A stretch of DNA of 64,000 nt from an uncultured Chloroflexia bacterium (GCA_963782015.1 CAWAHY010000004.1:759488-823487), one strand, 5' to 3'; shown: positions 32,706-50,928, counted from the first letter of the stretch. Program-made: numbers and translations. The notes: generated by a model from the letters alone, not told the origin.

Positions 32706-32709
32706 CGCC

Positions 32710-34230
32710 CTACCACGGCAGGAAGCCGGTCAGCCCAGGCGAGGCGTTGACGGCGTCGAGGATGCGCGCCACCGGCCCGGCGATCGCGTCGAGGACAGGC
32801 CCGGGGAAGACGCCCAGCCCCACCACCAGCAGGATCAGCGGGGCGAGCGAGAGCCACTCGTTGCGGCTCATGTCGGTCAGCTTCGGCCAGGCCTGTCGCA
32901 TCCAGTCCGACGGGACCGCGAAGAAGACGCGCTGGAACATCCACAGCATGTAGACCGCGCTGATGATCACGACCAGCATCGTGGCGGCGGCGACCCAGGC
33001 GGAGTACTGGAACGAGCCGAGGACGACCAGGAACTCACCGATGAAGCCGCTCAAGCCGGGCAGCCCGATGCTGGCGAAGGTGAACAGCCCAAAGATCGCC
33101 GCGTAGCGCGGCAGGCGCCCGTTGAGGCCGCCCATGTGCGCGATCTGGCGGTCGTGGGTGCGCTCGTAGATCACGCCGACGAGCAGGAAGAGCGCCCCCG
33201 TGGTGACCCCGTGGCTGATCATCTGGAAGACGGCGCCCTGCAGCCCCTGGGTGTTGAAGACGAAGACGCCGAGCATCACGAAGCCCATGTGGCTGACCGA
33301 GGAGTAGGCGATCAGCTTCTTGAGGTCCGGCTGCACCATGCTGACCATGGCGCCGTACAGGATGGCGACCACCGCCAGGCCGATGACGATGGGGGCGAAC
33401 TCCTTGCTGGCGTCGGGCAGGAGCGGCAGCGAGTAGCGCAGGAAGCCGTAGCCGCCCAGCTTGAGGAGCACCCCGGCCAGGATGATGCTGCCCGCCGTCG
33501 GCGCCTCGACGTGGGCGTCGGGGAGCCAGGTGTGGAACGGCCACATCGGCACCTTGATGGCGAAGGCCAGGAAGAAGGCGACGAAGGCGAGGGCCTGGAG
33601 GCCATCGGCGTAGCCAAAGCCACGCAGCGTCTCGTAGCTGAAGGTGAACGGGTTGCCGGCCGAGGCATGCGCGATCGCCACGGCCAGGATGGCGACCAGC
33701 ATCAGCAGCGAGCCGACCAGGGTGTAGACCACGAACTTGACCGTGGCGTAGATCCGCCGCGGCCCGCCCCAGATCCCGATGATCAGGTACATCGGGATCA
33801 GGCTCAGCTCCCAGAACACGTAGAAGAGGAACAGGTCGAGGCTGACGAAGACGCCCAGCATGCCGACCATCAGCAGCAGCATCGTGGCGTAGTACTCCTT
33901 GACCCGCGTCTGGATCGGGTCCCAGGAGTAGAAGATGCTGACCACGCTGAGCACGGTGGTGAGCAGCACCAGCACGACCGACAGCCCGTCGACGCCCATC
34001 GTGTAGCGCATCCCGAAGGCGGCGATCCAGGAGACATCCTCGCGGTACTGGAACTCGGCGCCGGTCGTCTGGTAGCCGAGCAGCGTCACGCTGAAGGCGA
34101 GGCTGGCGAGCGAGGCGATCAGGGCGAGCCAGCGGATCAGGCGCGCCTTGTCGCGCGGCACGAAGAGTATCGCCAGGGCCCCGATCAGCGGCGTGAAGAC
34201 GACCAGGCTGAGCACCGGCAGGCCGCTCAT
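32710..34230 (-). CDS. nuoM: Complex I subunit M
   Basis: FWE, KVPMWPFHTWLPDAHVEAP, KLIAYSSVSHMG. Confidence 0.96.
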   Translation of the reverse strand: MSGLPVLSLVVFTPLIGALAILFVPRDKARLIRWLALIASLASLAFSVTLLGYQTTGAEFQYREDVSWIAAFGMRYTMGVDGLSVVLVLLTTVLSVVSIFYSWDPIQTRVKEYYATMLLLMVGMLGVFVSLDLFLFYVFWELSLIPMYLIIGIWGGPRRIYATVKFVVYTLVGSLLMLVAILAVAIAHASAGNPFTFSYETLRGFGYADGLQALAFVAFFLAFAIKVPMWPFHTWLPDAHVEAPTAGSIILAGVLLKLGGYGFLRYSLPLLPDASKEFAPIVIGLAVVAILYGAMVSMVQPDLKKLIAYSSVSHMGFVMLGVFVFNTQGLQGAVFQMISHGVTTGALFLLVGVIYERTHDRQIAHMGGLNGRLPRYAAIFGLFTFASIGLPGLSGFIGEFLVVLGSFQYSAWVAAATMLVVIISAVYMLWMFQRVFFAVPSDWMRQAWPKLTDMSRNEWLSLAPLILLVVGLGVFPGPVLDAIAGPVARILDAVNASPGLTGFLPW

Positions 34231-36458: not shown

Positions 36459-36462
36459 CGGC

Positions 36463-36771
36463 TCATTCCCGCAGGTCCGAGTACTCGTCCACCTCGGGGG
36501 TCTGGCGGGTGCGGATGATGGCGATCACCAGCGCCAGCCCCACCGTCGCCTCGGCCGCGGCCACGGCCATCACCAGCAGCGCGAAGATCGCGCCGGTGTC
36601 GTCGGGGGCGTAGTAGGCGTACGCGTTGAAGGCGACCAGGGAGAGGTTCACGGCGTTGAGCATCAGCTCGATGCTGATCAGCATCAGGATCGCGTTGCGC
36701 CGCGCCAGGAAGCCGAACATCCCGATCGCGAAGAGGAGCGCGGAGACGAGCAGGAAGCCCTGGAGGCCCAT
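36463..36771 (-). CDS. nuoK: Complex I subunit K
   Basis: RRNAILMLISIELMLNA, AAAEATVGLAL. Confidence 0.95.
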   Translation of the reverse strand: MGLQGFLLVSALLFAIGMFGFLARRNAILMLISIELMLNAVNLSLVAFNAYAYYAPDDTGAIFALLVMAVAAAEATVGLALVIAIIRTRQTPEVDEYSDLRE

Positions 36772-37283
36772 CAGTCGTTCGCCTTCTCGTCGTCTTCGGG
36801 GCGCCGCGCCAGGTAGATGGCCCCGATGATCGCGGCCAGCAGGAGCAGGCTCAGGATCTCGAACGGCAGCGCGTAATCGGTGAAGAGCGACTTCGAGAGG
36901 GCGTCGAGCGCGATGGCGAGGATCACGGTGGCGTTGCCCCAATCGGTCTGGACGACCGCCCAGCCGATCAGCCCCACCACCACGAAGGCGGCCACCGCGG
37001 CCAGGATCGCCTGGCGGTGGAACGGCGAGGGCAGGTTCGCGTCGCCGGCCTGGGTCAGCATGATCGCGAACAGGATCAGGACGCTGATCGCGCCGAGGTA
37101 GATGAGCACCTGCGCCGCCGCCACGATCGGGGCCCCCAGGAGCGCGTACATCCCCGCCAGCGAGCCGAAGCAGACCATCATCGCGATCGCGCTGTGGATG
37201 ATGTTGCGCAGCGTGACGACCAGCAGTCCGCCGCCGATGACGCCGACGGCGAGCAGGATGAAGAGGACGCCTGAGAGGTCCAG
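36771..37283 (-). CDS. nuoJ: Complex I subunit J (CTG start inferred)
   Basis: QVLIYLGAISVLILFAIML, PFEILSLLLL; AGGAG 8 nt before CTG. Confidence 0.9.
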   Translation of the reverse strand: MDLSGVLFILLAVGVIGGGLLVVTLRNIIHSAIAMMVCFGSLAGMYALLGAPIVAAAQVLIYLGAISVLILFAIMLTQAGDANLPSPFHRQAILAAVAAFVVVGLIGWAVVQTDWGNATVILAIALDALSKSLFTDYALPFEILSLLLLAAIIGAIYLARRPEDDEKAND

Positions 37284-37424
37284 GGCTACGGCTCCTGACG
37301 GAGTGTTCGGGCGCTCAAACGGCCTCGCCGATCTGCAGATCCGAGGCCGCGTCCGATTCTAGCGCAGCCGCTCCGGACGATCGGTCAATGGCAGGAATCG
37401 CGGCGCCCTGTCAATGTGCGCCCG

Positions 37425-37847
37425 ATGCGCGCGATTGCCGGCCTCCTCCTGGGCCTCTGGCTGGTCGGCGGCCTGTGGCTCACCCTCCAGCCGGCGCACC
37501 CGCTCCCCAGCCAGGTGGTCGACGACAACCTCGTCCCCTTCCACACCCTCGCCATCTACTGGCGCAACCTCGACTCGGACTTCTGGCTGCGCAACCTCTT
37601 CGGCAATCTCTTCCTGCTCCTCCCCCTCGGCCTGCTCGGCCCCATCGCCCTGCCCGTCCTGCGCCGATGGTGGCTGGTCCTCCCGCTGGCGCTGCTGATC
37701 TCCGCCTCGATCGAGCTCGCCCAGTTCCGGATCCCCGACCGTTCCGCCGACATCGACGACGTGATCGTCAACGTCACCGGCGCCCTGCTGGGCTATCTCA
37801 CCCTCAGCACCCTGCGCCTCTTCCGGAGACCCACCCAGGCGGCGTAG
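37425..37847 (+). CDS. VanZ family membrane protein
   Basis: NLVPFHT, GNLFLLLPLG, IELAQ, RSADIDDVIVNVTG. Confidence 0.88.
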   Translation: MRAIAGLLLGLWLVGGLWLTLQPAHPLPSQVVDDNLVPFHTLAIYWRNLDSDFWLRNLFGNLFLLLPLGLLGPIALPVLRRWWLVLPLALLISASIELAQFRIPDRSADIDDVIVNVTGALLGYLTLSTLRLFRRPTQAA

Positions 37848-37856
37848 CATCCGACT

Positions 37857-39617
37857 GTGCGCCGATGGTGGGGAGGTCGCGGCTATGCGGTCCTTGCCGC
37901 CGCCTCGCTCCTGACAGCCGGCTGCACCACGCCAGCTCCGAGCATCGAGCCCGCCTCCGTGCCTCCAACGGCATCGGTCGAGGCGTCTCCCGCGGTCGGA
38001 AGCAGCTGGGTCGAGCTGCCGTTGCAGCCGCGGGGAGGTCCCGGTGACCTATGGGTGCAGGGAGCTTACCGAGGTCCACAGGGCATCGCGGTTACCGGTC
38101 AGCTCGCCGGACCACTTGCGGAGGAGTCGTACGGCGTTCGACCAGTGGCCTGGTACTCGCCGGATGGGTCGTCGTGGCAGCCCGGGGTCGTCACGGTATT
38201 CAGTGACGGCTCGCAATTCGGGGCCGACAGGTTTGGGTCAATCTTTGAAAGCGATGGCCAGCTTTTGGCATTCCTGACCGGGAGCCGGAACGGCGTGGAC
38301 GATGCAACGACCGTGATGCTATCCGAGGATGGCGGGCAGAGTTGGCAGCCGGCCAACGTTGACGCATCGCTCGACGCCGTAGTCACGGACGTAGCCCGTG
38401 GTGGGCCGGGCTTTGTCGCCGTCGGATATACAACGGACCCGATTCGCCGCCGTGCAACAGTTCTGGTTTCCGAGAACGGCGTCGACTGGGCGTCCGAAGG
38501 GGAGGGACTCAGGACTACGCGAGGCCGTCCATTTGGCGCACTGAATGCGATCGCCTCCAATGGCGAAATCCTGGTCGCCGTGGGGTCCACTCGAGACACG
38601 CTGGACGAGCCTGGTCATGGTCGGGTATGGATATCGTTGGATGGCCTGGAGTGGACCCAACAACTCGAGCCAGACGACATGGGCGCGGAGATGAGCGATG
38701 TCACCGCGTATGCCGACGGCTTTGTCGCGGTCGGGAGTGTCCTCGGTGCGCCCGCCGCATGGTGGAGCCCCGACGGTGCGGCATGGACTCGAGCCGACCT
38801 TCCGGCGATCGGCGGTGCAAGATACGTCGCATCGCTGGCAATGATCGGGGACGGTCTTGTTGCGGTTGGCGATGCAACCGATCACGCTGTGGCGTGGCGC
38901 TCGTCCGATGGGCAGCACTGGGAGGCGGCGGGGCGGCTGACAAGCGAGGCAGCGTCGGCGCGGTTCGTTCTGTCTGTCGACTCAGGCGTCTTGGTTCTGG
39001 GCAACTCGCCGAAGCCTGCAGAGCCCCTGGCATGGCTCTCGCCTCCATCAATCGCCCGTCCACCCGAGCCCACAGCGTCGCTGCCGCTCGAGTCCTCGCC
39101 CGCACCGATCGCCGGGGAGACGCCCGGTCCGGACGCGACCCCTTGGCCGGGTGGAGCCTCACTTCCCGGCATCACCTTGACCGATCTAGCACGGCTTGCA
39201 GGGACGCTGGGCATGACCTGCCAATCTGGCGAAGGCACGATCCCAGACTCCTCGCAGACCCATTGGGTGCTGTTCTGCGAAGGCAGCCAGCACAACACCG
39301 ATCTGCGCCTCGAAGTGCAGTACTTCAACCCGCTCTCGATCTGGGAGATTTCCCTCAGCACGTCTCCCATCGACACTCAGCCCGGCGACGCAGCCTGGAT
39401 CGAAGCCGTCGCCAGCGCCGTGGTGAACCTACCCTACGCGGGCAACCACTATCCCGCTGACCCGGTCGGGTGGATCCGGGCGAATCTCCACCGCGCCGAA
39501 TGCTTCGGGACCTTCTCGTGCTCGCTTGACGACGGCACCGTGCAGATCGTGCTCCAACTCGGCTACCCGGGATGGGTGACGGTCCGCCTCGACCCGAGCC
39601 CCCAGCAGTATCGGTAG
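37857..39617 (+). CDS. Lipoprotein with Asp-box (SxDGxxW) beta-propeller and extra C-terminal domain
   Basis: Lipobox LTAGC; SPDGSSW, SEDGGQSW, SENGVDW, SLDGLEW, SPDGAAW, SSDGQHW. Confidence 0.8.
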   Translation: MRRWWGGRGYAVLAAASLLTAGCTTPAPSIEPASVPPTASVEASPAVGSSWVELPLQPRGGPGDLWVQGAYRGPQGIAVTGQLAGPLAEESYGVRPVAWYSPDGSSWQPGVVTVFSDGSQFGADRFGSIFESDGQLLAFLTGSRNGVDDATTVMLSEDGGQSWQPANVDASLDAVVTDVARGGPGFVAVGYTTDPIRRRATVLVSENGVDWASEGEGLRTTRGRPFGALNAIASNGEILVAVGSTRDTLDEPGHGRVWISLDGLEWTQQLEPDDMGAEMSDVTAYADGFVAVGSVLGAPAAWWSPDGAAWTRADLPAIGGARYVASLAMIGDGLVAVGDATDHAVAWRSSDGQHWEAAGRLTSEAASARFVLSVDSGVLVLGNSPKPAEPLAWLSPPSIARPPEPTASLPLESSPAPIAGETPGPDATPWPGGASLPGITLTDLARLAGTLGMTCQSGEGTIPDSSQTHWVLFCEGSQHNTDLRLEVQYFNPLSIWEISLSTSPIDTQPGDAAWIEAVASAVVNLPYAGNHYPADPVGWIRANLHRAECFGTFSCSLDDGTVQIVLQLGYPGWVTVRLDPSPQQYR

Positions 39618-39661
39618 TGAGCCTCTTGAGGAGAGTTCCCTCCGAGGCGCAGCATCGGCGC

Positions 39662-40108
39662 ATGCGTCGGAGGGGAGTCGGAGCGTCGCGAATCACGGTT
39701 TGGGCCGCGGCCCTGGTGGTGATCCTCGCGTTGTCAGCCTGCGGGCAGGGAGGGAGCCCGAGTGACGCAAACCAGGCCGCAGACGCGTTTTTCAATGCCC
39801 TGGTCCGCCGCGACGCCGACGAGGCCTGGTCTCACCTCCACCCTGACAGCCAGCACGACGTCTACGGCGATGACAAGGCGGCGTTTGCTCGGGACGTGAA
39901 CGAGGCCGACTGGGGTCAGTTGTCTTGGGAGGTTGGCCCCGTCGTCAATTTCGACTATGCCTGGGAGGTCCATCTGACCTTGGACGAGGCGACCGTTCCA
40001 GACTTTCTGTTCGAGCGTCGCCTTGCCGGATATTCCACGTACCTTGTCATGCAGGTCCAGTTCCCCGGCAAGCTCGACGACTACCTGATTATTGCCTGGG
40101 CTAGGTGA
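39662..40108 (+). CDS. Hypothetical lipoprotein
   Basis: Lipobox LSAC after a basic/hydrophobic signal. Confidence 0.65.
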   Translation: MRRRGVGASRITVWAAALVVILALSACGQGGSPSDANQAADAFFNALVRRDADEAWSHLHPDSQHDVYGDDKAAFARDVNEADWGQLSWEVGPVVNFDYAWEVHLTLDEATVPDFLFERRLAGYSTYLVMQVQFPGKLDDYLIIAWAR

Positions 40109-40260: not shown

Positions 40261-42643
40261 CTACCTGGTGGGCCGCTCCCGGTCGCTCATCTCCAGGATG
40301 TCGAGCATCGGCAGATCGCGCTGGTACTCGCTGAACTCGAACTCCGGCCCGCAGCGCAGGGCGTCGTACGGGCAGGCATCGGCGCAGATGCCGCAGAAGA
40401 TGCATCGGCTCATGTCGAGCTGGTAGGTCTCCAGGGTGCGTGGTCGCGGCATGAGCGCGCCGACCGGGCAGGTCTCCGCGCAGCGGCCGCATGACACGCA
40501 CGGCGTCTCATTGAGGGACACGAAGTCGGCCGTGGTGACGAGCGAGTCGAAGCCCTTGCCGATGAAGTCGTAGCAGCCGGCGCCCACGATCTCCTTGCAG
40601 ACCTGTGCGCAGCGGCCGCAGTCGATGCAACGGGAGTAGTCGCGCAGGATGAAGGAGTGCGTCTCGTCGCGGCCGTAGCCGTGGTTGACGCCCACGTACG
40701 GGTTGTCCTGGATCGAGCGCTCGTCGATCGCCATGTTGAGCGTCGTCTCGTACTCGATCGCCGCCTCCCGCAGGTCGCAGTGGCCGATCGCCTCGCAGGT
40801 GCACTGCAGGCAGCGCCCCGCCTCGGCCATGGCCTGGTCGCCGGTGTAGCCGTGCTCGTACTCGCCGAAGCTGCGGTTTCGCTCCTCGGCGCCGAGCTTG
40901 CCCATCACCGCCTTTGGTTCCTTCACGTCGTCGGTGAAGGGCACGATCGTGAGGAACGAGGGCTGTGGCTCGCTCACGATGCGGCGCACCTGTGGGTCGT
41001 CGAGATCGTGGCCGCGCAGCCAGTAGTCGATCGCGTAGGAGGCGCGCCGCCCCTCGCCGATCGCCTCGACCACGGTGGTGGCGCCGGCGCGCACGTCACC
41101 CGAGGCGAAGACCTTCGGCAGGCCGGTGCGGAAGATGTCGTCCTCGCTGACCAGCGTGCCGCGGCGGCTCGTCTCGAGCTGCGAGCGGATCTCCTCGGGC
41201 TCGCTCTCGATCCAGGAGAGCTCGGGTCCCTGGCCGATGGCGCCCAGCACGGTGTCGCAACTCACGATGAACTCGGTGCCGGGCATCGGCTCCGGACGGC
41301 GGCGGCCCTTCTCATCGGGCTCGCCCAGGTGCATGCGCTGGAACTCGACCCCCGTTACCTTGTTGCGCTTGTCGGTCACGATGCGGACCGGCGCCGCCTG
41401 GAAGATGACCCGCGCCCCTTCCTCGATCGCCTCGTGCACCTCGTCCTGCGCCGGCATGTCTTTCAGGTCGCGCCGGTAGACGAGGGTCACCTCGGCAGCG
41501 GACTGGCGGATGCTGGTCCGCGTGCAGTCGATGGCGGTGAACCCGCCGCCGATCACGACGACCCTCGCCCCCTTCAGCGCCGGGATGGGGACGCCACGCG
41601 AGCTGTTGTAGAGGTTCTCGAGGGCGTTGACCACGCCGTCGGCGTCCTCGCCGGGGATCCCCATCTCGTTGGAGCGGTAGCAGCCGGTGCCGATGTAGAC
41701 CGCGTCGTAGCCCTGCTCCAGCAGGTCGGCGATGTGGAAGTCGCGGCCGAGCCGCATGTTCGGGCGGAAGGTGGCGCCCAGCTCCCAGACGTGGTTCAGC
41801 TCGCGGTCCATCCACTCCTTCGGAAGCCGATAGGCGGGGATCCCGTAGCGGAGCATGCCGCCCTGCTCCGGATCGGCCTCGTAGACGTCGCAGTGATGGC
41901 CCCGCAGCTGGAGGTAGTAGGCGGCTGACATGCCGGCCGGGCCCGAGCCGATGACCGCCACGCGGCGCCCGGAGTCAGGCTCCTTGGGCCATGGGGTGGG
42001 GGCCGGGGCATCGACCTCGAGGACGCGGTCGGCGCAGTAGCGGTGCGAGTCGCGGATGGCGATGGCGGTGTCGACCTCCTCGCGCCGGCAGTGCGTCTCG
42101 CACGGCGCGGGGCAGACGCGGCCGAGGATGGCCGGGAACGGCAGCGAGCGCTTGAGGATGCGCGTCGCCTCCTCCCAGTTGCCCAGCGTGTTCTGCTTGA
42201 GGTAGCCGGGGATGTCGACCCGCGTCGGGCACTTGAACTGGCAGGGCGGCAGGCAGTAGGCATCGTGGTCGCTGAAGATCAGCTCCAGCACCATCCGGCG
42301 GTTCTCGACCAGCCGATCGGAGTGGGTGGTGATGACCATCCCCTCTTCGATCTGCGTCCCGCAGCGAGATGGGGGTGTTCGCCTGCCCCTCGACCTCGAC
42401 CACGCAGATCCGGCAGGCACCATAGGGCGCCAGCTTCGGCTCGTAGCAGAGCGTCGGGACATCGATGCCGAGCACGCGGCAGGCCTGGAGGATGGTCTGC
42501 CCCTCCTCGGCCTCGACCAGCGCGCCGTTGATGGTGACGGCGAGCTTGCGGGTGCCCGGCACCATCGGCCAGATGGGGGTGTAGTCCTCCGGGCGCAGCG
42601 GCGCCCCCTTGCCGTTCCCGTTGCCGTTGGTGACGAAGCTCAT
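40261..42643 (-). CDS. NuoG-N-like Fe-S module with inserted GltD/SfrB-like FAD/NAD(P)H domain and C-terminal half-NuoI (frameshift near 42365)
   Basis: PTLC..GACRICVVEV [2Fe-2S]; PPCQFKCP, GRVCPAPCE, IGSGPAG, GGMLRYGIP, IGGGFTAID, YRR; CIDCGRCAQVC, CVSCGRCAETCP, CIFCGICADACP. Confidence 0.88.
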
Positions 42644-42655
42644 GGCCGGTGCATC

Positions 42656-44008
42656 TTAGAGGTGTGCCAGCGGGGCGATGAGGGGAGCGACCGGCGTCGT
42701 GCGGCACGCGCCGGCGAGGCACTCGCCCCGCTCGGCGTGGGCCCGGTACTCGTCGGCGAAGCGGTCGAGGGTGGTGAGCATCGGCCCCGGGGCGCGGGAC
42801 TCGAGGTGGCAGAGCGCCGTGTCGTGCATCTTGCGGGCCAGGTCGCGCATCAGCTGCGGGTCGCTCGGGCGGGGGCTGGCGGCCAGGACCCGGTCGAGCG
42901 CCTCGACCAGCCGCTTGGTGCCGATCCGGCAGGGGACCGCCTTGCCGCACGCCTCGCGGGCGGAGTAGTCGAGGAAGAAGCGGGCCGTGTCGACCATGCA
43001 GGTGTCGGTGTCGGTGACGAGCACCTGTCCGAGGCCGATGCCGGCTCCGGCCGCATGGAGCGCGTCGAAGTCATAGGGCGTGTCCAGCTCCTTCGCGGCG
43101 ATGGCCCCACCCCCCGGCCCGCCGACGAAGACCGCCTTGGTGGTCCCGGTCCCGCCGCCGGCGAGCGCGACGATCTTCGAGACCGGGGTCCCCAGCGCCA
43201 CCTCGGCCAGGCCCGGCTGCGCCACGCGGCCGTAGATGCTCACCAGCTTCGTGCCGGGAGCCTCCTTGCTGCCGACCGCGGCGAACTTCTTCGCGCCGTG
43301 CCGCGCGATCCACGCGACGTGCGCCAGCGTCTCGCCGTTCTGGACGACGGTCGGCGCGCCGCGCAGCCCGCGCTCGGTCGGGTACGGCGGCCGGATGACC
43401 GGCATGCCGCGATCGCCGGCCAGCGCGGCCAGCAGGGCGGTCTCCTCCCCGGCGACGAGCGCCGGCGCTCCCTCCCAGACCGAGACCACGCACGAGAAGT
43501 CGGTGCCCATCACCAGGTAGCCGGCGAGGTGCGCCGCATCGGCCTCGGCGACGGCGGCCCGCAGCCGCTCGATCGCCACGCTCCAGTCGCGGCGGACGGC
43601 GATGACCGCCTCCGACGCGCCGATCGCGAAGGCGGCGACCAGCAGCCCCTCGAGGACCAGGTGCGGATTCCCCTCGGCCAGCGCCCGGTCTCCGAGGGCG
43701 GTGGGATCGGCCCCGATCAGGTTGGCGACGACCTTGCGCTCGCCCTCGACCGCACGGGCGGCGCGCCACTTGTCGGCGGTGGGATAGCCACCGCCCCCGC
43801 GGCCGCGCAGGCCGGCGGCGGCGATCTCGTCGACGGTCCCCTCCGCGCCGAGCTTCGCGACGGCGCGCTTCAGGCCGTCGTAGCCGCCCGCCTTGCGGTA
43901 GCTGGCCAGGCTGGTCGGGTCGACGGAGCCGATCTCGGCCAGCAGGCGCTGCTCGCCGCCGGGCAGGATGCGGATCTGCGGGGAGAGGCCGGTGGAGCGG
44001 TCGGTCAC
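42656..44008 (-). CDS. nuoF: NuoF-like flavoprotein, degenerate
   Basis: GLRGRGGGGYPT..KW, GEETALL, PPYPTERGL, VGGPGG, EACGKAVPCRIG. Confidence 0.85.
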   Translation of the reverse strand: MTDRSTGLSPQIRILPGGEQRLLAEIGSVDPTSLASYRKAGGYDGLKRAVAKLGAEGTVDEIAAAGLRGRGGGGYPTADKWRAARAVEGERKVVANLIGADPTALGDRALAEGNPHLVLEGLLVAAFAIGASEAVIAVRRDWSVAIERLRAAVAEADAAHLAGYLVMGTDFSCVVSVWEGAPALVAGEETALLAALAGDRGMPVIRPPYPTERGLRGAPTVVQNGETLAHVAWIARHGAKKFAAVGSKEAPGTKLVSIYGRVAQPGLAEVALGTPVSKIVALAGGGTGTTKAVFVGGPGGGAIAAKELDTPYDFDALHAAGAGIGLGQVLVTDTDTCMVDTARFFLDYSAREACGKAVPCRIGTKRLVEALDRVLAASPRPSDPQLMRDLARKMHDTALCHLESRAPGPMLTTLDRFADEYRAHAERGECLAGACRTTPVAPLIAPLAHL

Positions 44009-44847
44009 GAGATGGACGCCCCCGCCGGCTTGCGGGCCGGGCCCTTGCGCCGCTCGGCCACGACATGGCGGCCATCCGCCACGGAGAGCGGGCCGTAGAC
44101 CAGGGTGTCGACGCGCAGCGCCGGGGAGAGCGCACCGGCCGCAATGTCGTCCCGCGTCTCGAGGCTGACCGAGCCGTCCGCCGTCGTCTCGCCGGGCGAG
44201 ATGCCCAGGTCGGCGCAGATGGCGGCCAGCAGGGCGTCGCCGCCGGCGAAGCGGCAGGCGGCGCAGGTGCAGACGCTGACCAGGTGCCCGTCGGTGGGGA
44301 GGAGACGGAAGCCGCCCAGCCCGGCGGCGCCGAAGACCTGGGCCCAGTGGATCGACATCGTGTCGCTCACCTGGCGCAGGGCCAGCTCGGGCAGGTAGCC
44401 GTAGCGCGACTCCACCGCGGAGAAGATGGCGACCAGCGCCTCGGGGCGCCCGCCGAAGCCGTCGATCACGCCGCGCAGCCACGGGGCGTCGATCGCCTCG
44501 TCCCAGCGCGCCGCGTTGCGCATCGGCTCCGCCGGCAGGCCAGCTCGCCGGAAGGCGTTGGGGTCCTTGCGCTCGTCGTAGATCTCCGGCATGCCGTAGC
44601 GGATCCGGTTCCCCTGCGAGTCGAAGCCGCTCATGTCGATCGCCTCCACCGGGCAGACCTGCGCGCACTGGAAGCAGACCTCGCACTTGTGCTCGCCGAA
44701 CGGGTCGTAGATCAGGTCGAGGCGACCACGCCAGCGGTCCGGCATGGTCGGGCGCGACTCGGGGTACTGGTTCGTGACCTTGGGCGCCCAGTAGTTGCGC
44801 CCCGTCTGGCGCAGCCCCTTGAGGATGCCGAAGCCGGGGATCCTCAC
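44005..44847 (-). CDS. Fusion of N-terminal half of NuoI with a NuoE-like domain
   Basis: VTNQYPE..RWRG..KCEVCFQCAQVCP, then YGYLP..VSVCTCAAC..LGISPGETTADG. Confidence 0.85.
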   Translation of the reverse strand: MRIPGFGILKGLRQTGRNYWAPKVTNQYPESRPTMPDRWRGRLDLIYDPFGEHKCEVCFQCAQVCPVEAIDMSGFDSQGNRIRYGMPEIYDERKDPNAFRRAGLPAEPMRNAARWDEAIDAPWLRGVIDGFGGRPEALVAIFSAVESRYGYLPELALRQVSDTMSIHWAQVFGAAGLGGFRLLPTDGHLVSVCTCAACRFAGGDALLAAICADLGISPGETTADGSVSLETRDDIAAGALSPALRVDTLVYGPLSVADGRHVVAERRKGPARKPAGASIS

Positions 44848-45854
44848 AGCTTGAAGGCCACCACCGCCGCGGCGGTGACGAGCAGGTTGACCATGGCCAG
44901 CGGCAGCAGGACCTTCCAGGCGGCGCTCATCAGCTGGTCGATCCGGACGCGCACCAGCGTCACGCGCAGGAGGACCGCGAGCGCCACGAACAGGTACGTC
45001 TTGAGGAAGAACCAGAGGACGCCATACAGCGTGCCGGCGAAGCCGTCGAGCTGCGCGGGGAACGGCCAGGGAGCCAGCCAGCCGCCGAAGAAGAGGGCGG
45101 CCATGATCCCGCTCATGATGAAGAGGGCCACGTACTCGGCGAAGAAGAAGAAGCCAAAGCGCATGCCGGAGTACTCGGTGAAGGGCCCGGCCACCAGCTC
45201 GCTATCGGCCTCGACCATGTCGAACGGGGTGCGGTTGATCTCCGCCAGCGAGGCGATGTAGAAGATCCCCAGGCCGACCGGCTGCCAGATCAGCATCCAG
45301 CCGTGGGCCAGCTGCCATTCGATCAGCTCGCGGAAGTTGAGCGTCCCGGCCAGGACCACCGCCCCGACCACCGACAGGGTCAGCGGGATCTCGTAGCTGA
45401 CCATCTGCGCGGCGCTGCGCAGCCCGCCCAGCAGCGAGTACTTGTTGTAGCTGGCCCAGCCGGCGACCAGCAGCCCGACCACGGAGAGGCCGATCACCGC
45501 GAAGAAGTAGACGATCCCGATGTTGAAGTCCGCGGCGATGGCGCCCGGCGCGAAGGGGATCACCAGCATGCTCATGGCCGCCGCCATGTAGACCATCCAC
45601 GGCGCCAGGGTGAACGTGGCGCGATCGGCCTGGTCGGGGATGTGGTCCTCCTTGGCGAGGACCTTGAAGCCGTGGATCGTGCTCTGGAACATGCCCCACG
45701 GGCCGATCCGGTTCGGCCCGTAGCGGAGCTGCGCGCCGGCGATGATCTTGAGCTCCATCTGGATCACCACGAACGCGGTCGGCACCGTCAGCAGCAGGAT
45801 CAGGGTGGTGGCCAGCAGGAAGCGCAGGACGCCGAGGACGACGCTCCAGTCCAT
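44844..45854 (-). CDS. nuoH: Complex I subunit H
   Basis: RYGPNRIGP, KYSLLGGLRSAAQMVSYE, NRTPFD..ESE-like, TEYSG. Confidence 0.96.
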   Translation of the reverse strand: MDWSVVLGVLRFLLATTLILLLTVPTAFVVIQMELKIIAGAQLRYGPNRIGPWGMFQSTIHGFKVLAKEDHIPDQADRATFTLAPWMVYMAAAMSMLVIPFAPGAIAADFNIGIVYFFAVIGLSVVGLLVAGWASYNKYSLLGGLRSAAQMVSYEIPLTLSVVGAVVLAGTLNFRELIEWQLAHGWMLIWQPVGLGIFYIASLAEINRTPFDMVEADSELVAGPFTEYSGMRFGFFFFAEYVALFIMSGIMAALFFGGWLAPWPFPAQLDGFAGTLYGVLWFFLKTYLFVALAVLLRVTLVRVRIDQLMSAAWKVLLPLAMVNLLVTAAAVVAFKL

Positions 45855-47105
45855 CTACTTGTCCACCCCGCCCATCACCGGGTCGAAGCTGGCCATCACC
45901 GCCATGGTGTCGGCGATGAGGCGCCCCGGCATCAGCTTCGGGATCGCCTGGAGGCTGACGAAGCTCGGGTCGCGCATGCGGAACCGATACGGGTTGGGGC
46001 CGCCGTCGCTGATGGCGTAGACGCTGTACAGGCCGCGCGGCGACTCGACTGCGGCGTAGGCGCGCCCCGGCTTGGGGCGGATGATCCCCGGCACCTGCGC
46101 CTGCACGGGGCCGTGCGGCATCTTGTCGACGATCTGGTCGATCAGGTGGATGCTCTGCTTGATCTCGGCCACGCGCTGCAGGTAGCGGGCGTTCGAGTCG
46201 CCGCCGGGCTGGGTGATCACCTCGAACTCGAGCTCGGGGTAGATCGAGTAGGGATGCGCCTTCCGCACGTCGAACGGCACGCCCGAGGCGCGCAGGTTCG
46301 GACCGGAGACGCCCAGCGCGATCGCGTCCTTGCCCGACAGGACCCCCATCCCGATCGTCCGCGCCCGGAAGATCTCGTTGTCGGTGATCACCCGCTCGCT
46401 CATCTCGACGTTCTTCAGCACGTTGGCCCGCCAGCTGCCGAGGCGCGAGAGGAACTCGTCGTTGGTGTCGAAGTTGACGCCGCCGACCCGGAAGAAGTTG
46501 AAGAGCATCCGCTGGCCGCTGATCGCCGAGAGCATGTCGACGATCTCGTCGCGGTTGATGAAGCCGTACAGGATGGGGGTGATGCCGCCCATGTCGAGCG
46601 CCAGGAAGCCCATCATCAGGCTGTGGCTGAAGACCCGGTTCAGCTCCACCACCAGCGCCCGGATGTACTCCGCGCGCCTCGGGGCCGCGACCCCGAACAG
46701 CTTCTCGAAGGCGATCGCGGGGGCGTGCTCGTTGTGCATCCCCGACAGGTAGTCCATCGGGTCGACGTAGGTCATCACGGTGGTGTAGGTGGCGTTCTCG
46801 CACAGCTTCTCGATGCCGCGGTGCAGGTAGCCCAGCACCGGGTCGACATCGGTCACCACCTCGCCACGGACCTTGACCACGAGGCGCATGACGCCGTGGG
46901 TGGAGGGGTGCTGCGGGCCCATGTTGACCAGCATCTCGCCCTCTTCGAGGGAGTAGATCTCGCGCTCGCGCTCGGTCTGCGGCGGCCGATCCGGCAGCCC
47001 CACCGACTCGAAGCCCGCGTAGTCGCCAACGGGGCCTCGCGCGGGGGGCAGCCCGGCGACCGTGCGCAGGCGCGCCTCCTCGTCGCGCTCCAGGTCGACC
47101 GTCAC
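45855..47105 (-). CDS. nuoD: Complex I subunit D
   Basis: NMGPQHPSTHGVMRL, GYLHRGIEK, ESPRG; no [NiFe] CxxC motifs. Confidence 0.95.
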   Translation of the reverse strand: MTVDLERDEEARLRTVAGLPPARGPVGDYAGFESVGLPDRPPQTEREREIYSLEEGEMLVNMGPQHPSTHGVMRLVVKVRGEVVTDVDPVLGYLHRGIEKLCENATYTTVMTYVDPMDYLSGMHNEHAPAIAFEKLFGVAAPRRAEYIRALVVELNRVFSHSLMMGFLALDMGGITPILYGFINRDEIVDMLSAISGQRMLFNFFRVGGVNFDTNDEFLSRLGSWRANVLKNVEMSERVITDNEIFRARTIGMGVLSGKDAIALGVSGPNLRASGVPFDVRKAHPYSIYPELEFEVITQPGGDSNARYLQRVAEIKQSIHLIDQIVDKMPHGPVQAQVPGIIRPKPGRAYAAVESPRGLYSVYAISDGGPNPYRFRMRDPSFVSLQAIPKLMPGRLIADTMAVMASFDPVMGGVDK

Positions 47106-47686
47106 GACTCGCCCTCCGCGTGGGCGATGACGCCCGGGGCCAGCTCCTCGGAGAGGCGTGAGAGGTCCCACGTCTCGGGGCGCTCGAGCGGCCGCACGCC
47201 GGCCGCAGGGGAGTCGGCCGCGTCGTCGGGGAGGAGGAAGTCGCGGCGCTGCGGGAAGCTGCGATAGTCGGGCGACATGTAGATCCGGCGCAGGTCGCGG
47301 TTCCCGTCGAAGACGATCCCCATCATGTCGTACATCTCGCGCTCGTGGAACATCGCCCCCTCCCACAGGCCGGTGATGGTGGGGATATGGGGATCGGCGC
47401 GGTTCACGTGGGCGCGGACGCGGAGCCAGGCGGGGTGACGATCGGAGTAGAGGTGGTAGACCACCTCGAAGTGCTCGGTGGGGCCGTAGTCGACCGCGGC
47501 GGCATCGGCGAGGTAGAAGAAGTTCAGCTCGGGCTCGTCGCGCAGCGGCCGCAGGACCTCCACCACGCGGCTGCCGTCGATCGAGACCTCGACGCTGTCC
47601 TCATCGGTCCACAGGCTGGCGGCCAGCTCCGGGAATCGGTCGAGCAGGAGCCGGACCAGGGCGCCCGCCTTGGCCGGGGCGCTCAG
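47102..47686 (-). CDS. nuoC: Complex I subunit C (CTG start inferred)
   Basis: [26 protein letters not shown]. Confidence 0.92.
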
Positions 47687-48339
47687 CGCACGTCTCCTTC
47701 CCAGTCCTGCCGCTGGACGCCGCGGTCGACGAACGTCGACCATTCGCCGCGCCGCTGCTTGACCAGCTCCTGGAGCCGCATCATCCCGTAGATCAGGCCC
47801 TCCGGTCGGGGCGGGCAGCCGGGCACGTAGACGTCGACCGGCATCACCCGGTCGACCCCCTGCACCACGCTGTAGGACCGCTTGAAGCGACCGCCCGAGG
47901 TGGTGCAGGTGCCCATCGCCACGCACCACTTGGGCTCGGGCATCTGCTCCCAGAGGCGGACCAGCGGGCCGGCCATCTTGGTCGTCAGGGTGCCGGCCAC
48001 GATCAGCACGTCCGCCTGCCGAGGCGAGGCGCGGAACGGGAACATCCCGAAGCGGTCGATGTCGTTCTTGGAGGTGGCGGTGCTCATCATCTCGATGGCG
48101 CAGCAGCTGAGGCCGGAGAGGAGCGGCCAGAGCGAGTTGGCGCGGATCAGGTCGAGGACGATGTCGGCCCGGGTGGGGATCACCTCCAGCAGGCCGTGGA
48201 AGCCGCCCTGCGGATGCTCCTCCATGCCGAACTCGCGGAGCAGCTCGTCATCGGCCTGGTCGGCGACGACGATGCGCCCGTCCGCGGAGAGCGACGCGGT
48301 GACCTTGCCCTCGGCGCGGGGCGGGGTCTCTAGCGCCAC
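47683..48339 (-). CDS. nuoB: Complex I subunit B
   Basis: [25 protein letters not shown]. Confidence 0.96.
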
Positions 48340-48689
48340 TTGAGGTCACCCTTCTTCCAGGCGTACAGCTCGCCGAAGAGGAGGATCCCCAGGAAGACGC
48401 CGATCAGCACGATCCCCTGCACCGCGATCGCCCGCACCGCCACCGCCCACAGGTAGACGAAGACGATCTCGACGTCGAAGGCCACGAAGAGCAGCGCGTA
48501 GAGGTAGAAGGCGAGGCCGAAGCGCGACCAGGTGTCGCCGATGGTGTCGATCCCGCACTCGTACGGCAGGCCCTTCTGCGGGGTCCGCCGGCGGTGGGTG
48601 ATCAGCCACGAGAAGAGGATCGTGCCGAACACGAAGATCGATGCGGCGATCCCGAATCCGATGACGTAGAGCAGTCCGGTCTGATCCAT
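48330..48689 (-). CDS. nuoA: Complex I subunit A
   Basis: PYECG, FVAFDVE, AWKKG. Confidence 0.95.
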
Positions 48690-50598: not shown

Positions 50599-50928
50599 CT
50601 AGAGGCGCTCGAAGCGCTCGACGGGCATCACGAAGACGGTGGCCCCGCCGACCTCCACCTCGACCGGGTAGGGCATGTAGAACTCGCCCGGCTCCATGAT
50701 CGGGGGCATCGGGTTGACGAACTGTCTCCGCGAGTGGCAGTTGGCGCTCACGATCTCGAGCACCGCGTCGACCTGGTCGTCCTCGACCCCCACCAGGATG
50801 GTGGCGTTCCCCTGCTTGAGGAAGCCGCCCGACGACTGCAGGCGGGTCGCGCGGAACTCCTTCTCGAGGAGGGCGTCGACCAGGTTGCCGGCATCCTCGC
50901 TGTGGACGATCGCGGTCACGAGCTTCAT
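50599..50928 (-). CDS. darA: Cyclic-di-AMP receptor DarA/PstA (PII-like)
   Basis: MKLVTAIV..D, ATRLQSSGGFLKQGNAT, VEVGGATVFV. Confidence 0.92.
   Translation of the reverse strand: MKLVTAIVHSEDAGNLVDALLEKEFRATRLQSSGGFLKQGNATILVGVEDDQVDAVLEIVSANCHSRRQFVNPMPPIMEPGEFYMPYPVEVEVGGATVFVMPVERFERL

What the first reader, a model, noticed from the sequence alone, without database searches (positions are those of the whole stretch)
40261..44847. Split NuoI: the electron-input module sits between the two halves of nuoI
Seen: the gene after nuoH begins as NuoI (VTNQYPE..RWRG..CEVCFQCAQVCP) but has only one ferredoxin motif and continues into a NuoE-like domain. The missing second half (YQLDMSRCIFCGICADACPYDAL..PEFEFSEYQR) is the C-terminus of the NuoG/GltD-like protein two genes later, which thus has three such motifs. 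Established: NuoI clusters N6a/N6b each take three Cys from one motif and one from the other. Inference: nuoE-F-G-like genes were inserted into nuoI of an 11-subunit complex, and the clusters would be ligated across two polypeptides, tethering the input module to the Q-module. I do not know of a described complex I with this architecture.
Basis: partly seen in the sequence, partly recalled or inferred. Interest (0 to 1): 0.88.

Follow-up and report, generated by a model that had tools for sequence, protein, structure and literature searches.

The report
Split NuoI in respiratory complex I
In this bacterium's only respiratory complex I the iron-sulfur subunit NuoI is cut in two, each half is fused to a subunit of an NADPH/NADH-oxidising module whose three genes lie inside the old nuoI gene, and this layout is conserved in two bacterial classes and seems undescribed.

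Summary
After nuoH comes a 280-aa protein made of the N-terminal half of NuoI (one CxxCxxCxxxCP motif) plus a NuoE-like domain. Next come a NuoF-like gene and a 2Fe-2S/GltD/HoxU-like protein that ends in the C-terminal half of NuoI. The NuoI model TIGR01971 is covered at positions 4-73 by one protein and 71-112 by the other. No intact nuoI was found in this genome or in five relatives, and each of the five genomes checked has a single nuoH.

The layout nuoABCDH-[I(N)-E]-F-[GltD-I(C)]-JKLMN recurs in 15 of 15 loci from three Limnocylindria families and in 9 of 9 Thermoleophilia (Actinomycetota) loci. The three inserted genes are closest to solved NfnABC/StnABC transhydrogenases, more than to NuoEFG.

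In this lineage the NuoE/NuoF-like parts have lost cluster ligands and extra domains, while the GltD protein is highly conserved. NADPH is therefore the likeliest donor; this is inferred. The window's own GltD gene has a 1-nt frameshift that related contigs lack. Reassembly of the two halves is not shown. I found no description in nine literature searches. Verdict: a new variant of complex I, of high interest.

The parts
48330..48689 (-). nuoA
   Evidence: PF00507, E 2.5e-31
47683..48339 (-). nuoB (the CC...C...CP ligands of cluster N2 are visible in the translation)
   Evidence: PF01058, E 8.6e-28; translation
47102..47929 (-). nuoC (longest ORF; the true start is probably near 47680, after nuoB)
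   Evidence: PF00329, residues 116-234
45855..47366 (-). nuoD (longest ORF; the true start lies inside it)
   Evidence: PF00346, E 1.2e-81
44844..45854 (-). nuoH, the only nuoH found in the genome
   Evidence: PF00146, E 1.7e-106; one match in G000
44005..44847 (-). P1: fusion protein of the NuoI N-half and a NuoE-like domain (280 aa)
44593..44847 (-). I(N): NuoI N-terminal helix, YPE and RxRG motifs, and a single CxxCxxCxxxCP motif (P1 residues 1-85)
   Evidence: TIGR01971 positions 4-73. E. coli NuoI residues 9-85. The motif is invariant in 16 of 16 and 30 of 30 aligned sequences.
44059..44466 (-). NuoE/HydC-like thioredoxin-fold domain. It keeps the CxxxxC pair but has lost the second Cys pair.
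   Evidence: PF01257. Alignment. Foldseek top hits are HydC, StnA and NfnC.
42656..44008 (-). P2: short NuoF/BfuB-like flavoprotein (450 aa). The FMN loop is kept, the second Cys of the N3 motif is Ala, and it has no N- or C-terminal Bfu domains.
40261..42643 (-). P3: 2Fe-2S + GltD-like FAD/NAD(P)H + HoxU-like FeS + NuoI C-half. It is read in two frames in this assembly.
42364..42367 (-). One extra base that breaks the P3 frame between ...TPIS and CGTQ...
   Evidence: In related contigs, 9 of 9 that bridge the site leave out one base here.
42374..42550 (-). N-terminal 2Fe-2S ferredoxin domain of P3 (NuoG N1b / BfuA A1 type)
   Evidence: PF13510, E 9.5e-15
41008..42300 (-). GltD/NfnB-like part: two [4Fe-4S] motifs, an FAD domain and an NAD(P)H domain
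   Evidence: PF14691, PF07992, PF00070; TIGR01318
40450..40800 (-). HoxU/HydA-like FeS region: a Cys/His cluster motif plus a 2x[4Fe-4S] domain
   Evidence: NF005745 HoxU and PF22117
40264..40449 (-). I(C): NuoI C-half, Y.LD.SRCIFCGICADACPYDAL plus a tail
   Evidence: TIGR01971 positions 71-112. E. coli NuoI residues 90-128 and Nqo9 residues 86-126. 97-100% identical in 6 of 6 loci of the same family.
36771..37181 (-). nuoJ
   Evidence: PF00499
36463..36771 (-). nuoK (start chosen inside the longest ORF, 36463-36942)
   Evidence: PF00420
34227..36458 (-). nuoL
   Evidence: PF00361, PF00662
32710..34230 (-). nuoM (start chosen inside the longest ORF, 32710-34401)
   Evidence: PF00361
31248..32705 (-). 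nuoN
   Evidence: PF00361

Best explanation
This is the organism's single, working type of respiratory complex I. Its electron-input module is an NfnABC/StnABC-like three-gene cassette (NuoE-like, NuoF-like, 2Fe-2S/GltD/HoxU-like) that lies inside nuoI.

The cassette interrupts nuoI in the hairpin between the two [4Fe-4S] motifs. The N-half of NuoI (membrane-proximal helix, YPE/RxRG, motif 1) is therefore made as the N-terminus of the NuoE-like protein. The C-half (motif 2 plus tail) is made as the C-terminus of the GltD protein.

Inferred: the two halves pair on the NuoB/D/H platform to rebuild the two-cluster ferredoxin domain (N6a/N6b). Each cluster would take Cys ligands from both polypeptides, which anchors the input module covalently on both sides.

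Inferred electron path in this lineage: NAD(P)H to the FAD of the GltD part, then through the GltD and HoxU-like clusters, the rebuilt N6a/N6b and N2 of NuoB, to quinone, with proton pumping by NuoLMN.

The NuoF/NuoE-like arm has lost Bfu-type domains and some ligands. It is probably non-bifurcating and may be only a second (NADH) entry or a scaffold.
For: Shown:
- The two NuoI halves are complementary (TIGR01971 positions 4-73 and 71-112; E. coli NuoI residues 9-85 and 90-128).
- All other core subunits (A, B, C, D, H, J, K, L, M, N) are present with Pfam matches.
- No match reaches the NuoI cut-off in G000 or in 5 of 5 relatives that are 84-99% complete.
- There is one nuoH per genome in 5 of 5 genomes.
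- Full-length P1 occurs in 49 of 50 genomes of the same family. Matches occur in 146 of 151 genomes of the class.
- The same operon order is seen in 15 of 15 f1/f3/f4 loci and in 9 of 9 Thermoleophilia nuo-type loci.
- I(C) is the most conserved stretch of the operon, 97-100% identical in 6 of 6 family loci. For comparison, P2 is 59-86% by aligned piece and the NuoE-like part is 64-77%.
- Motif 1 and motif 2 cysteines are invariant in 30 of 30 and 21 of 21 aligned sequences.
- The closest solved relatives are NfnABC/StnABC: P2 matches 9bov_B at 5e-115 against about 1e-70 for NuoF. The P3 ortholog matches 9bov_A, 8oh5_C and 9n5u_A over about 700 residues. P1's fold matches HydC, StnA and NfnC.
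- StnC oxidises NADPH (PMC7483475, passages read).

Degeneration of the E/F arm:
- The second Cys of the N3 motif is replaced in 12 of 16 Limnocylindria sequences.
- The second NuoE Cys pair is incomplete in 16 of 16.
- P2 is 450 aa here, against about 640 aa with extra 2Fe-2S and 2x[4Fe-4S] domains in Thermoleophilia.
Against: - No structure, proteomics or enzymology exists. Pairing of the halves is inferred from the ferredoxin fold, from co-occurrence, and from the lack of any intact nuoI.
- Each half scores below the NuoI family cut-off (47 and 58 bits against 113).
- In this assembly P3 is frameshifted. If that is real, this strain's enzyme would be broken.
- G000 is only 82.7% complete, so a nuoI in the missing part cannot be excluded for this genome by itself.
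- The donor assignment is by homology only. The FMN loop, the GEETAL motif and P3's 2Fe-2S domain remain conserved. That argues the flavoprotein arm may still carry electrons, so 'NADPH only' is uncertain.
- The direction of electron flow in vivo is unknown.
Confidence: 0.75

Rival explanations
1. The enzyme is an electron-bifurcating or confurcating 'Nuo-Nfn-Bfu' complex in this organism too. It would couple NADH, NADPH and ferredoxin to quinone reduction through the NuoF/NuoE-like core.
For: The cassette is homologous to the bifurcating NfnABC/StnABC enzymes. The Thermoleophilia version keeps the whole BfuB/BfuC cofactor set: an N-terminal 2Fe-2S domain, a C-terminal 2x[4Fe-4S] domain, an intact N3 motif and intact NuoE cysteines. 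Membrane-bound Nuo-Bfu enzymes have been predicted (PMC9304861, passages read).
Against: The window's P2 lacks both extra domains (450 aa). One N3 Cys is Ala in 5 of 5 family sequences. The NuoE-like part lacks two cluster ligands. According to PMC9304861 (passages read), homologues that lack the extra B clusters do not bifurcate.
Confidence: 0.08
2. The architecture is the same, but the physiological direction is reversed. Proton-motive force drives electrons from quinol up to NADP+, so the enzyme supplies NADPH.
For: Complex I is reversible (established knowledge). The GltD/NfnA-type site handles NADP(H) in Nfn/Stn enzymes (PMC7483475 and PMC9304861, passages read). It is the only complex I in these genomes.
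Against: No evidence on the organism's energy metabolism was gathered here. A heterotrophic aerobe would normally need a forward NAD(P)H dehydrogenase. Nothing in the sequence sets the direction.
Confidence: 0.1
3. The halves do not reassemble. The third motif of P3 would be a leftover of the next cluster of NfnA/StnC, or would act on its own. P1's motif would be a lone cluster. The complex would then use another small ferredoxin as NuoI, or be inactive.
For: The phmmer alignment of the P3 ortholog to NfnA/StnC runs on to residue 753-758, into the I(C) motif. The genome holds small 4Fe-4S ferredoxin ORFs of 100-131 aa. This assembly's P3 is frameshifted.
Against: I(C) has the ferredoxin-type CxxCxxCxxxCP spacing and flanks that match NuoI/TYKY second halves at about 1e-13. 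P1 carries the NuoI-specific N-terminal region. The two halves always co-occur: 15 of 15, 2 of 2 and 9 of 9 loci. I(C) is 97-100% conserved within the family. The two upstream motifs of P3 already form a complete pair with each other, which leaves I(C) without an internal partner.
Confidence: 0.05
4. The split is an assembly or gene-calling artefact, or a decaying pseudogene cluster.
For: There is one frameshift in P3. The genome appears to be an error-prone assembly of 4 contigs, 82.7% complete. Related few-contig assemblies show many frame jumps (L021 and L023).
Against: The same fusions appear in hundreds of independent protein clusters and genomes and in two phyla. The frames are intact in L022 and L024-L035. 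Related contigs lack the extra base in 9 of 9 cases.
Confidence: 0.01

Closest known systems
NuoI / Nqo9 / TYKY (NDUFS8), the N6a/N6b subunit of complex I
   Same: P1 residues 5-80 match E. coli NuoI residues 9-85, and P3's tail matches residues 90-128. The gene position is the same, between nuoH and nuoJ. The N-terminal helix, YPE and RxRG motifs, and both Cys motifs are present.
   Different: The protein is not one polypeptide. It is cut in the inter-motif hairpin and each half is fused to an input-module subunit. Each half scores below the family cut-off.
NfnABC / StnABC (Nfn-Bfu) electron-bifurcating transhydrogenases (PDB 9bov/9bp5, 8oh5, 9n5u; PMC7483475, PMC9304861)
   Same: The three genes are in the same order (NuoE-like, NuoF-like, 2Fe-2S/GltD/FeS). 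These enzymes are the best solved matches for all three proteins.
   Different: The known enzymes are soluble, and their A subunit continues into a molybdopterin-oxidoreductase-like domain. Here that domain is replaced by the NuoI C-half, the C subunit carries the NuoI N-half, and the genes sit in a nuo operon. In the window's lineage the B and C subunits have lost the Bfu-specific domains and ligands.
Predicted Nuo-Bfu complex I (Schut et al. 2022, PMC9304861; passages read)
   Same: It is a Bfu-type module attached to a Nuo membrane complex, with the module genes in the middle of the operon.
   Different: As described there, BfuABC replaces NuoEFG in a 14-subunit layout, in Deferribacteres, Proteobacteria, Planctomycetes and Nitrospirae. 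The main text mentions no GltD domain and no split NuoI ('NuoI' and 'GltD' occur 0 times). The supplementary tables could not be seen.
Mbx-like clusters of Thermotoga and proteobacteria in which a GltD-related flavoprotein takes the place of NuoI (Degli Esposti 2015, PMC4758237; passage read)
   Same: A GltD-type NAD(P)H flavoprotein is wired directly to a NuoB/D-type module.
   Different: There NuoI is said to be substituted. Here both NuoI halves are kept and fused, in a full complex I operon with NuoH and NuoJ-N.
11-subunit complex I relatives with other input parts (cyanobacterial NDH-1 with ferredoxin; Fpo with FpoF). Recalled knowledge, plus PMC3144371 passages.
   Same: The A-B-C-D-H-I-J-K-L-M-N core order is the same, with an input module that is not NuoEFG.
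   Different: Those enzymes keep an intact NuoI/FpoI, and their input subunits are separate proteins.

Membership tests
Respiratory complex I (Nuo/NDH-1) | Core subunits NuoA, B, C, D, H, J, K, L, M and N are encoded together | tested here: met
   Pfam matches for all ten. There is one operon, interrupted by three + strand ORFs between P3 and nuoJ.
Respiratory complex I (Nuo/NDH-1) | A single NuoI polypeptide with two CxxCxxCxxxCP motifs | tested here: not met
   Motif 1 is on P1 and motif 2 is on P3. No intact nuoI in 6 of 6 genomes.
Respiratory complex I (Nuo/NDH-1) | N2 cluster ligands in NuoB | tested here: met
   The translation shows ...SCCAIEMM......GTCTTSGG......VPGCPPRPE.... That these are the N2 ligands is recalled knowledge.
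Respiratory complex I (Nuo/NDH-1) | NADH-oxidising N-module NuoEFG (14-subunit type), with genes between nuoD and nuoH | tested here: not met
   nuoD is followed directly by nuoH. The E/F/G-like genes lie between the nuoI halves. No NuoG molybdopterin-like domain is present.
Respiratory complex I (Nuo/NDH-1) | Quinone reduction coupled to proton pumping | not testable with these tools
   Needs biochemistry.
NuoI family TIGR01971 | Whole-protein score above the curated cut-off (113.05 bits) | tested here: not met
   P1 scores 47.4 bits and P3 57.6 bits. The halves together cover model positions 4-112.
Nfn-Bfu (NfnABC/StnABC) | A subunit with 2Fe-2S, a GltD-like FAD/NADP(H) insert and HydA-type FeS clusters | tested here: met
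   The P3 ortholog aligns in one stretch to 9bov_A, 8oh5_C and 9n5u_A (E 1e-141 to 1e-162). Pfam and NCBIfam domains.
Nfn-Bfu (NfnABC/StnABC) | BfuB with an extra N-terminal 2Fe-2S domain and a C-terminal 2x[4Fe-4S] domain, plus a complete N3-type cluster | tested here: not met
   The window's P2 is 450 aa with no extra domains, and its N3 motif reads CGKAVPC. The feature is met in Thermoleophilia L050.
Nfn-Bfu (NfnABC/StnABC) | BfuC (NuoE-like) with four Cys for a 2Fe-2S cluster | tested here: not met
   The second Cys pair is missing or incomplete in 16 of 16 Limnocylindria sequences. It is present in P0149, P0151, P0168 and P0172.
Nfn-Bfu (NfnABC/StnABC) | [quoted passage not shown] | not testable with these tools
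   The gene context argues for a membrane-bound complex instead.
NF009454 (PRK12814, putative NADPH-dependent glutamate synthase small subunit; 2Fe-2S + GltD + FeS) | Score above the curated cut-off (916 bits) | tested here: not met
   485 bits for frame B of P3 and 637 bits for L050. It is a relative, not a member.

The most novel reading that the evidence does not exclude
This would be a second, independent invention of a pyridine-nucleotide input module for complex I. A whole NfnABC-type operon was spliced into nuoI of an 11-subunit enzyme, so that a two-cluster ferredoxin domain is assembled from two different polypeptides and serves as the plug for the module.

The same split plug is reused on a 2-oxoacid:ferredoxin oxidoreductase in Thermoleophilia.

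In Thermoleophilia, where all Bfu cofactor sites are intact, the result would be a proton-pumping respiratory complex that couples NADH, NADPH, ferredoxin and quinone (bifurcation or confurcation on complex I). In Limnocylindria it has decayed into an NADPH-driven complex I.
Probability: 0.35. Interest if true: 0.92.

Novelty: new variant of a known kind. Interest (0 to 1): 0.82.

Why it matters
Complex I is among the best-studied enzymes of bioenergetics, and its 11 or 14 core subunits are treated as fixed building blocks. This finding bears on that picture in four ways.

1. A core iron-sulfur subunit is split inside its cluster-binding fold and rebuilt from two fusion proteins. That gives a natural test of how the N6a/N6b domain folds and assembles.
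2. The input module was acquired at a different place (inside nuoI) and from a different source (Nfn/Stn-type) than NuoEFG. Acquisition of an NAD(P)H module would then have happened more than once.
3. The likely donor is NADPH, or NADH plus NADPH, and perhaps ferredoxin in Thermoleophilia. That would change how redox balance is modelled for Limnocylindria and Thermoleophilia. That these two groups are abundant in soil and freshwater is recalled, not tested here.
4. Current annotation calls P1 only 'NAD(P)H-dependent oxidoreductase subunit E'. Pipelines will therefore score these genomes as lacking NuoI.

Tried and rejected
Complex prediction. I sent I(N) (P1 residues 1-100, alignment A2), I(C) (alignment A3, residues 28-92) and two 4Fe-4S clusters. 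The scores were 0.28 and 0.27 against a mark of 0.32. The verdict was 'no answer' and the controls were not run. This is no evidence either way.

AF2 of P1 alone. The NuoE-like part is confident (block means 71-95). The I(N) part is poor (41-74). That fits a half-domain without its partner, but it could also come from the shallow alignment, so I do not count it.

Reads.
- No run holds more than 0.28 of the sampled words, so the source sample was not found. What was laid are contigs of relatives.
- These contigs show the missing base at 42364-42367: X1 1 of 1, X4 4 of 4, X5 4 of 4 bridging contigs.
- They cannot say whether this strain really carries the extra base.
- The RNA-library contigs of X15 cover parts of P3 and P2, but none bridges the site, and contigs do not prove transcription.

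Distribution.
- The fused form was not found outside Limnocylindria among the 301 sampled Chloroflexota. There, only the NuoE part of P0149 matched.
- P0151 represents a rare third lineage with no taxon name (2 clusters).
- I first took the family-f2 locus (B-D-I(N)-F-P3 without H or J-N nearby) for a separate soluble complex. I dropped this because f2 genomes have one nuoH elsewhere and no other NuoI-like gene.

Considered and rejected.
- Programmed frameshift in P3: relatives have a plain open frame.
- Long open frames of 690-790 aa in f3 taken as E-F fusions: these are spurious high-GC read-through.
- I did not build a phylogeny to decide between a single origin plus transfer and independent insertions, because I had no canonical Actinomycetota outgroup.

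Literature. I ran nine full-text searches and read passages of PMC4758237, PMC7483475, PMC9304861, PMC3578206, bioRxiv 10.1101/2024.07.04.601786, PMC4453560 and PMC3144371. None describes a split NuoI. Subscription-only papers were not searched.

Unpublished genomes. The counts include G096, G123 and G087 (family f1) and G091, G067 and G112 (f2). Without them f1 is 46 of 47. Those include G281, G185, G393, G354 and G306. No locus that I fetched, aligned or folded comes from these genomes.

Full report
**Anatomy**

The finding lies in a minus-strand nuo operon. In reading order it contains:
- nuoA (48330-48689), nuoB (47683-48339), nuoC, nuoD and nuoH (44844-45854).
- P1 (44005-44847, 280 aa), P2 (42656-44008, 450 aa) and P3 (40261-42643).
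- Three + strand ORFs (37416-40108).
- nuoJ, K, L, M and N (31248-37181).

All ten ordinary core subunits have Pfam matches. P1 starts on a GTGA overlap with the nuoH stop, and P2 starts on a GTGA overlap with the P1 stop. This suggests translational coupling.

P1 carries a weak single-motif 4Fe-4S signal at residues 52-77 and PF01257 (NuoE-type) at residues 128-263. NCBIfam places P1 residues 14-84 on positions 4-73 of the 121-position NuoI model TIGR01971. It places P3 residues 675-716 on positions 71-112.

Solved structures give the same picture:
- P1 residues 5-80 match E. coli NuoI residues 9-85 (E 9.7e-13) and Nqo9 residues 15-71.
- The P3 tail matches E. coli NuoI residues 90-128 (E 2.4e-13) and Nqo9 residues 86-126.

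The cut therefore lies in the hairpin between the two cluster motifs. One strand of the hairpin stays on each protein.

P3 also holds an N-terminal 2Fe-2S domain, a GltD-like part (two [4Fe-4S] motifs, FAD and NAD(P)H domains) and a HoxU/HydA-like FeS region. The two motifs of that region pair with each other, which leaves the third motif, I(C), without an internal partner.

In this assembly P3 is in two frames. Frame A ends ...VEVEGQANTPIS and frame B continues CGTQIEEGM.... Relatives read ...TPISCGTQ... in one frame. One extra base at 42364-42367 causes this.

In contigs of related populations from three DNA runs, every contig that bridges the site leaves out one base: X1 1 of 1, X4 4 of 4, X5 4 of 4. 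The source sample itself was not found.

The genome has 4 contigs and is only 82.7% complete. Two related few-contig assemblies show many frame jumps in the same operon (L021 and L023). An assembly indel is thus the likeliest cause, but a strain-specific mutation is not excluded.

**No other NuoI, and only one complex I**

- The NuoI family search of the whole genome finds nothing above the cut-off, and its two best matches are the two halves.
- The same is true in 5 of 5 relatives that are 84-99% complete (G015, G016, G049, G023, G011).
- Each of the 5 genomes tested has exactly one nuoH. In G000, G015 and G023 it is the one in this operon.

**Conservation**

- P1 has 540 relatives in the word-indexed protein search. 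The best 120 are all 270-290 aa, cover 94-100% of P1 and are 73-100% identical. The named ones are Limnocylindria or Chloroflexota MAGs annotated only as 'NAD(P)H-dependent oxidoreductase subunit E'.
- In 151 genomes of the class, 146 have a match.
- In the window's family, 49 of 50 genomes have a match at 70-87% identity. All but one of these matches are full-length (G123 starts at residue 21). The count is 46 of 47 without the three genomes flagged unpublished.
- Families f3 and f4 match at 35-43% identity from residue 2-3 onward.
- Seventeen fetched loci were mapped by tblastn. All 15 from f1, f3 and f4 show nuoA-B-C-D-H-[I(N)]-P2-[P3 with I(C)]-J-K-L(-M). The NuoE-like part was detected in 13 of these 15.
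- The two f2 loci hold nuoB-nuoD-[I(N) plus extension]-P2-[P3 with I(C)]. Their single nuoH lies elsewhere, and they too lack any intact nuoI.
- Within the family, I(C) is 97-100% identical in 6 of 6 loci. It is the most conserved piece of the operon. For comparison, NuoD is 83-94% identical, P2 59-86% by aligned piece, and the NuoE-like part 64-77%.

**Beyond the class**

A full HMMER pass over 1.84 billion representatives gave 3347 hits, but only 20 at E<=1e-30. Among the full-length fused hits are distant ones (P0149, P0151, P0168, P0170, P0172; 29-35% identity). Apart from P0170, which lacks one, these keep all four NuoE cysteines.

The P0149 family has 1201 members at E<=1e-10. The best 120 are almost all about 253 aa (range 236-340 aa), and one is named Thermoleophilia.

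Genome loci found with P0381 are mostly Thermoleophilia or Actinomycetes MAGs. In 9 of the 9 nuo-type loci examined, the order is again nuoA-B-C-D-H-[I(N)-NuoE]-NuoF-like-[2Fe-2S-GltD-HoxU-I(C)]-J-K-L-M-N. In L072, NuoC fell below my threshold. NCBIfam shows the same complementary NuoI halves there, at positions 3-66 and 69-114.

Among 301 sampled Chloroflexota, only Limnocylindria show the fused form. P0151 stands for a rare third lineage without a name.

**What the inserted genes are**

- P2's best solved matches are the B subunits of Nfn-ABC (9bov_B, 5e-115), StnABC (8oh5_B) and T. sibiricus NfnABC (9n5u_B). These rank well above true NuoF (about 1e-70).
- The intact P3 ortholog of L022 (95% identical to the window's) aligns in one stretch of about 700 residues to NfnA/StnC: 9bov_A 3.5e-162, 8oh5_C 3.1e-147, 9n5u_A 6.6e-141.
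- The modelled NuoE-like domain of P1 is closest to HydC, StnA and NfnC.
- The gene order E-like, F-like, GltD/G-like equals stnA-B-C (PMC7483475, passages read).

So an Nfn/Stn-type (Bfu-family) operon sits inside nuoI. The molybdopterin-like C-terminal domain of NfnA/StnC is replaced by I(C).

**State of the cofactor sites**

In Thermoleophilia (L050):
- The F-like protein is a full BfuB, with an N-terminal thioredoxin-like 2Fe-2S domain, intact NADEGDPGAF and ESCGKCVPC motifs, and a C-terminal 2x[4Fe-4S] domain.
- The NuoE part passes a NuoE equivalog cut-off.

In Limnocylindria:
- P2 is short, at 450 aa.
- The second Cys of the N3 motif is replaced in 12 of 16 sequences: Ala in 5 of 5 from the window's family, Thr or Ser in 7. 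It is kept in L027, L030 and the two f2 loci.
- The NADEGDPG loop reads NLIGADPT in the window's family.
- The second Cys pair of the NuoE-like domain is incomplete in 16 of 16.
- By contrast, the FMN loop GRGGxG(F/Y)P, the GEETAL motif, P3's 2Fe-2S domain and every Cys motif of P3 are conserved.

**Mechanism: shown and inferred**

Shown:
- The two fusions and their complementarity to NuoI.
- The absence of an intact nuoI, and the single complex I.
- Strong conservation in two phyla.
- The Nfn/Stn ancestry of the cassette.

Inferred from the established two-cluster ferredoxin fold, in which each cluster takes three Cys from one motif and the fourth from the other (recalled knowledge):
- I(N) and I(C) pair to rebuild N6a/N6b.
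- This tethers P1 and P3, and through them P2, to NuoB/D/H.

Inferred by homology to StnC/NfnA, which handle NADP(H) (PMC7483475 and PMC9304861, passages read), and from the relative conservation of P3 against P1/P2:
- In this lineage electrons enter mainly from NADPH at the GltD-type FAD.
- They then pass through P3's clusters to N6a/N6b, to N2 and to quinone.

The conserved FMN loop and 2Fe-2S domain leave open a second, NADH-fed entry through P2. The direction in vivo and the coupling stoichiometry are unknown.

I put about 0.75 on the architecture-plus-function statement as a whole. The split architecture being real and functional is above 0.9. NADPH as the main donor is about 0.5.

**Origin**

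One complication is that Thermoleophilia MAGs also carry a paralogous cluster. It contains:
- a PorA-like gene;
- a [half-ferredoxin + NuoE] gene of 263-285 aa;
- a HydB-like gene;
- a gene of about 1060 aa with 2Fe-2S, GltD, HoxU-like, a second half-ferredoxin motif and PorB.

The split adaptor is therefore used with a second partner enzyme. Its N-half keeps only a vestige of the NuoI-specific region (NuoI model positions 34-64). I read this as derivation from the nuo version, but that needs a phylogeny.

**Comparison with what is known**

The closest described systems are:
- NuoI itself.
- Soluble NfnABC/StnABC.
- The predicted 14-subunit Nuo-Bfu, in which BfuABC replaces NuoEFG (PMC9304861).
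- Mbx-like clusters in which a GltD flavoprotein is said to replace NuoI (PMC4758237).

None has a NuoI split across two fusion proteins. Nine full-text searches and the passages I read gave no description. Supplements and subscription-only papers could not be checked.

- The complex prediction gave no verdict (see Tried and rejected).

**Verdict**

This is a new variant of complex I, widespread in two uncultured-rich classes. It is of high interest both for the structure and assembly of the enzyme and for the evolution of its input modules.

Noticed in passing
window 42364-42367: One extra base puts P3 into two frames in this assembly. Related contigs (9 of 9 that bridge the site) and the intact orthologues lack it. 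It is probably an assembly indel, possibly a strain mutation.
   Followed up: yes
window 37416-40108 (+ strand): Three opposite-strand ORFs separate P3 from nuoJ: VanZ-like PF04892, a 586-aa protein and a 178-aa protein, the last two without a Pfam family. GC is 0.654 here against about 0.70 around. In f3/f4 and Thermoleophilia loci, nuoJ follows P3 within about 0.3-0.4 kb.
   Followed up: partly
window about 36110-36370 (within nuoL, 34227-36458): NuoL carries a His/Asp-rich insert of about 100 aa after its first helix. tblastn to f3/f4 and Thermoleophilia NuoL mostly starts only at residue 119-153 (a few Thermoleophilia hits start at residue 43-70). Loci of the same family align from residue 1-3.
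   Followed up: no
L066, L068, L069, L071 (Thermoleophilia/Actinomycetes MAGs), about 8650-15800: A paralogous cluster: a PorA-like gene, then [half-ferredoxin motif + NuoE], then a HydB-like gene, then a fusion of about 1060 aa (2Fe-2S, GltD, HoxU-like, a second half-ferredoxin motif, PorB). The same split adaptor is attached to a 2-oxoacid:ferredoxin oxidoreductase.
   Followed up: partly
L036, L037 (family f2, G016 and G049): The nuo genes are dispersed. nuoB-nuoD-[I(N) + about 150-aa extension with no Pfam match]-P2-P3 lie at one locus, preceded by two ORFs (286 and 448 aa) with no Pfam family. The only nuoH is on another contig.
   Followed up: partly
L021 (G003) and L023 (G006): Several frame jumps within nuoH, P2 and P3 in these few-contig assemblies of the same genus. 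This suggests indel-rich long-read assemblies in this genus.
   Followed up: no
L027-L035 (families f3 and f4), 3' end of P3: P3 carries an extra C-terminal tail of about 35-70 aa after I(C). It has a conserved ...Y(I/V)RRERDW... stretch in f3 and then a Gly/His/Asn-rich end. The window's family lacks it.
   Followed up: no
window 50599-50928 (-) and 52681-54435 (-): A cyclic-di-AMP receptor protein (PF06153, E 1.4e-41). Also a 584-aa protein that combines a SpoIIIAA-like AAA ATPase, a PTPase-like domain (PF25516) and an R3H domain.
   Followed up: no
window 44844-44847 and 44005-44008: GTGA start/stop overlaps join nuoH to P1 and P1 to P2. This fits translational coupling of the fusion protein with the membrane subunit.
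   Followed up: no
L058 (3.8-kb contig titled Deltaproteobacteria bacterium): A full-length Thermoleophilia-type I(N)-NuoE gene (69% identical to P0381) sits on a short contig binned as Deltaproteobacteria. It may be a binning error.
   Followed up: no
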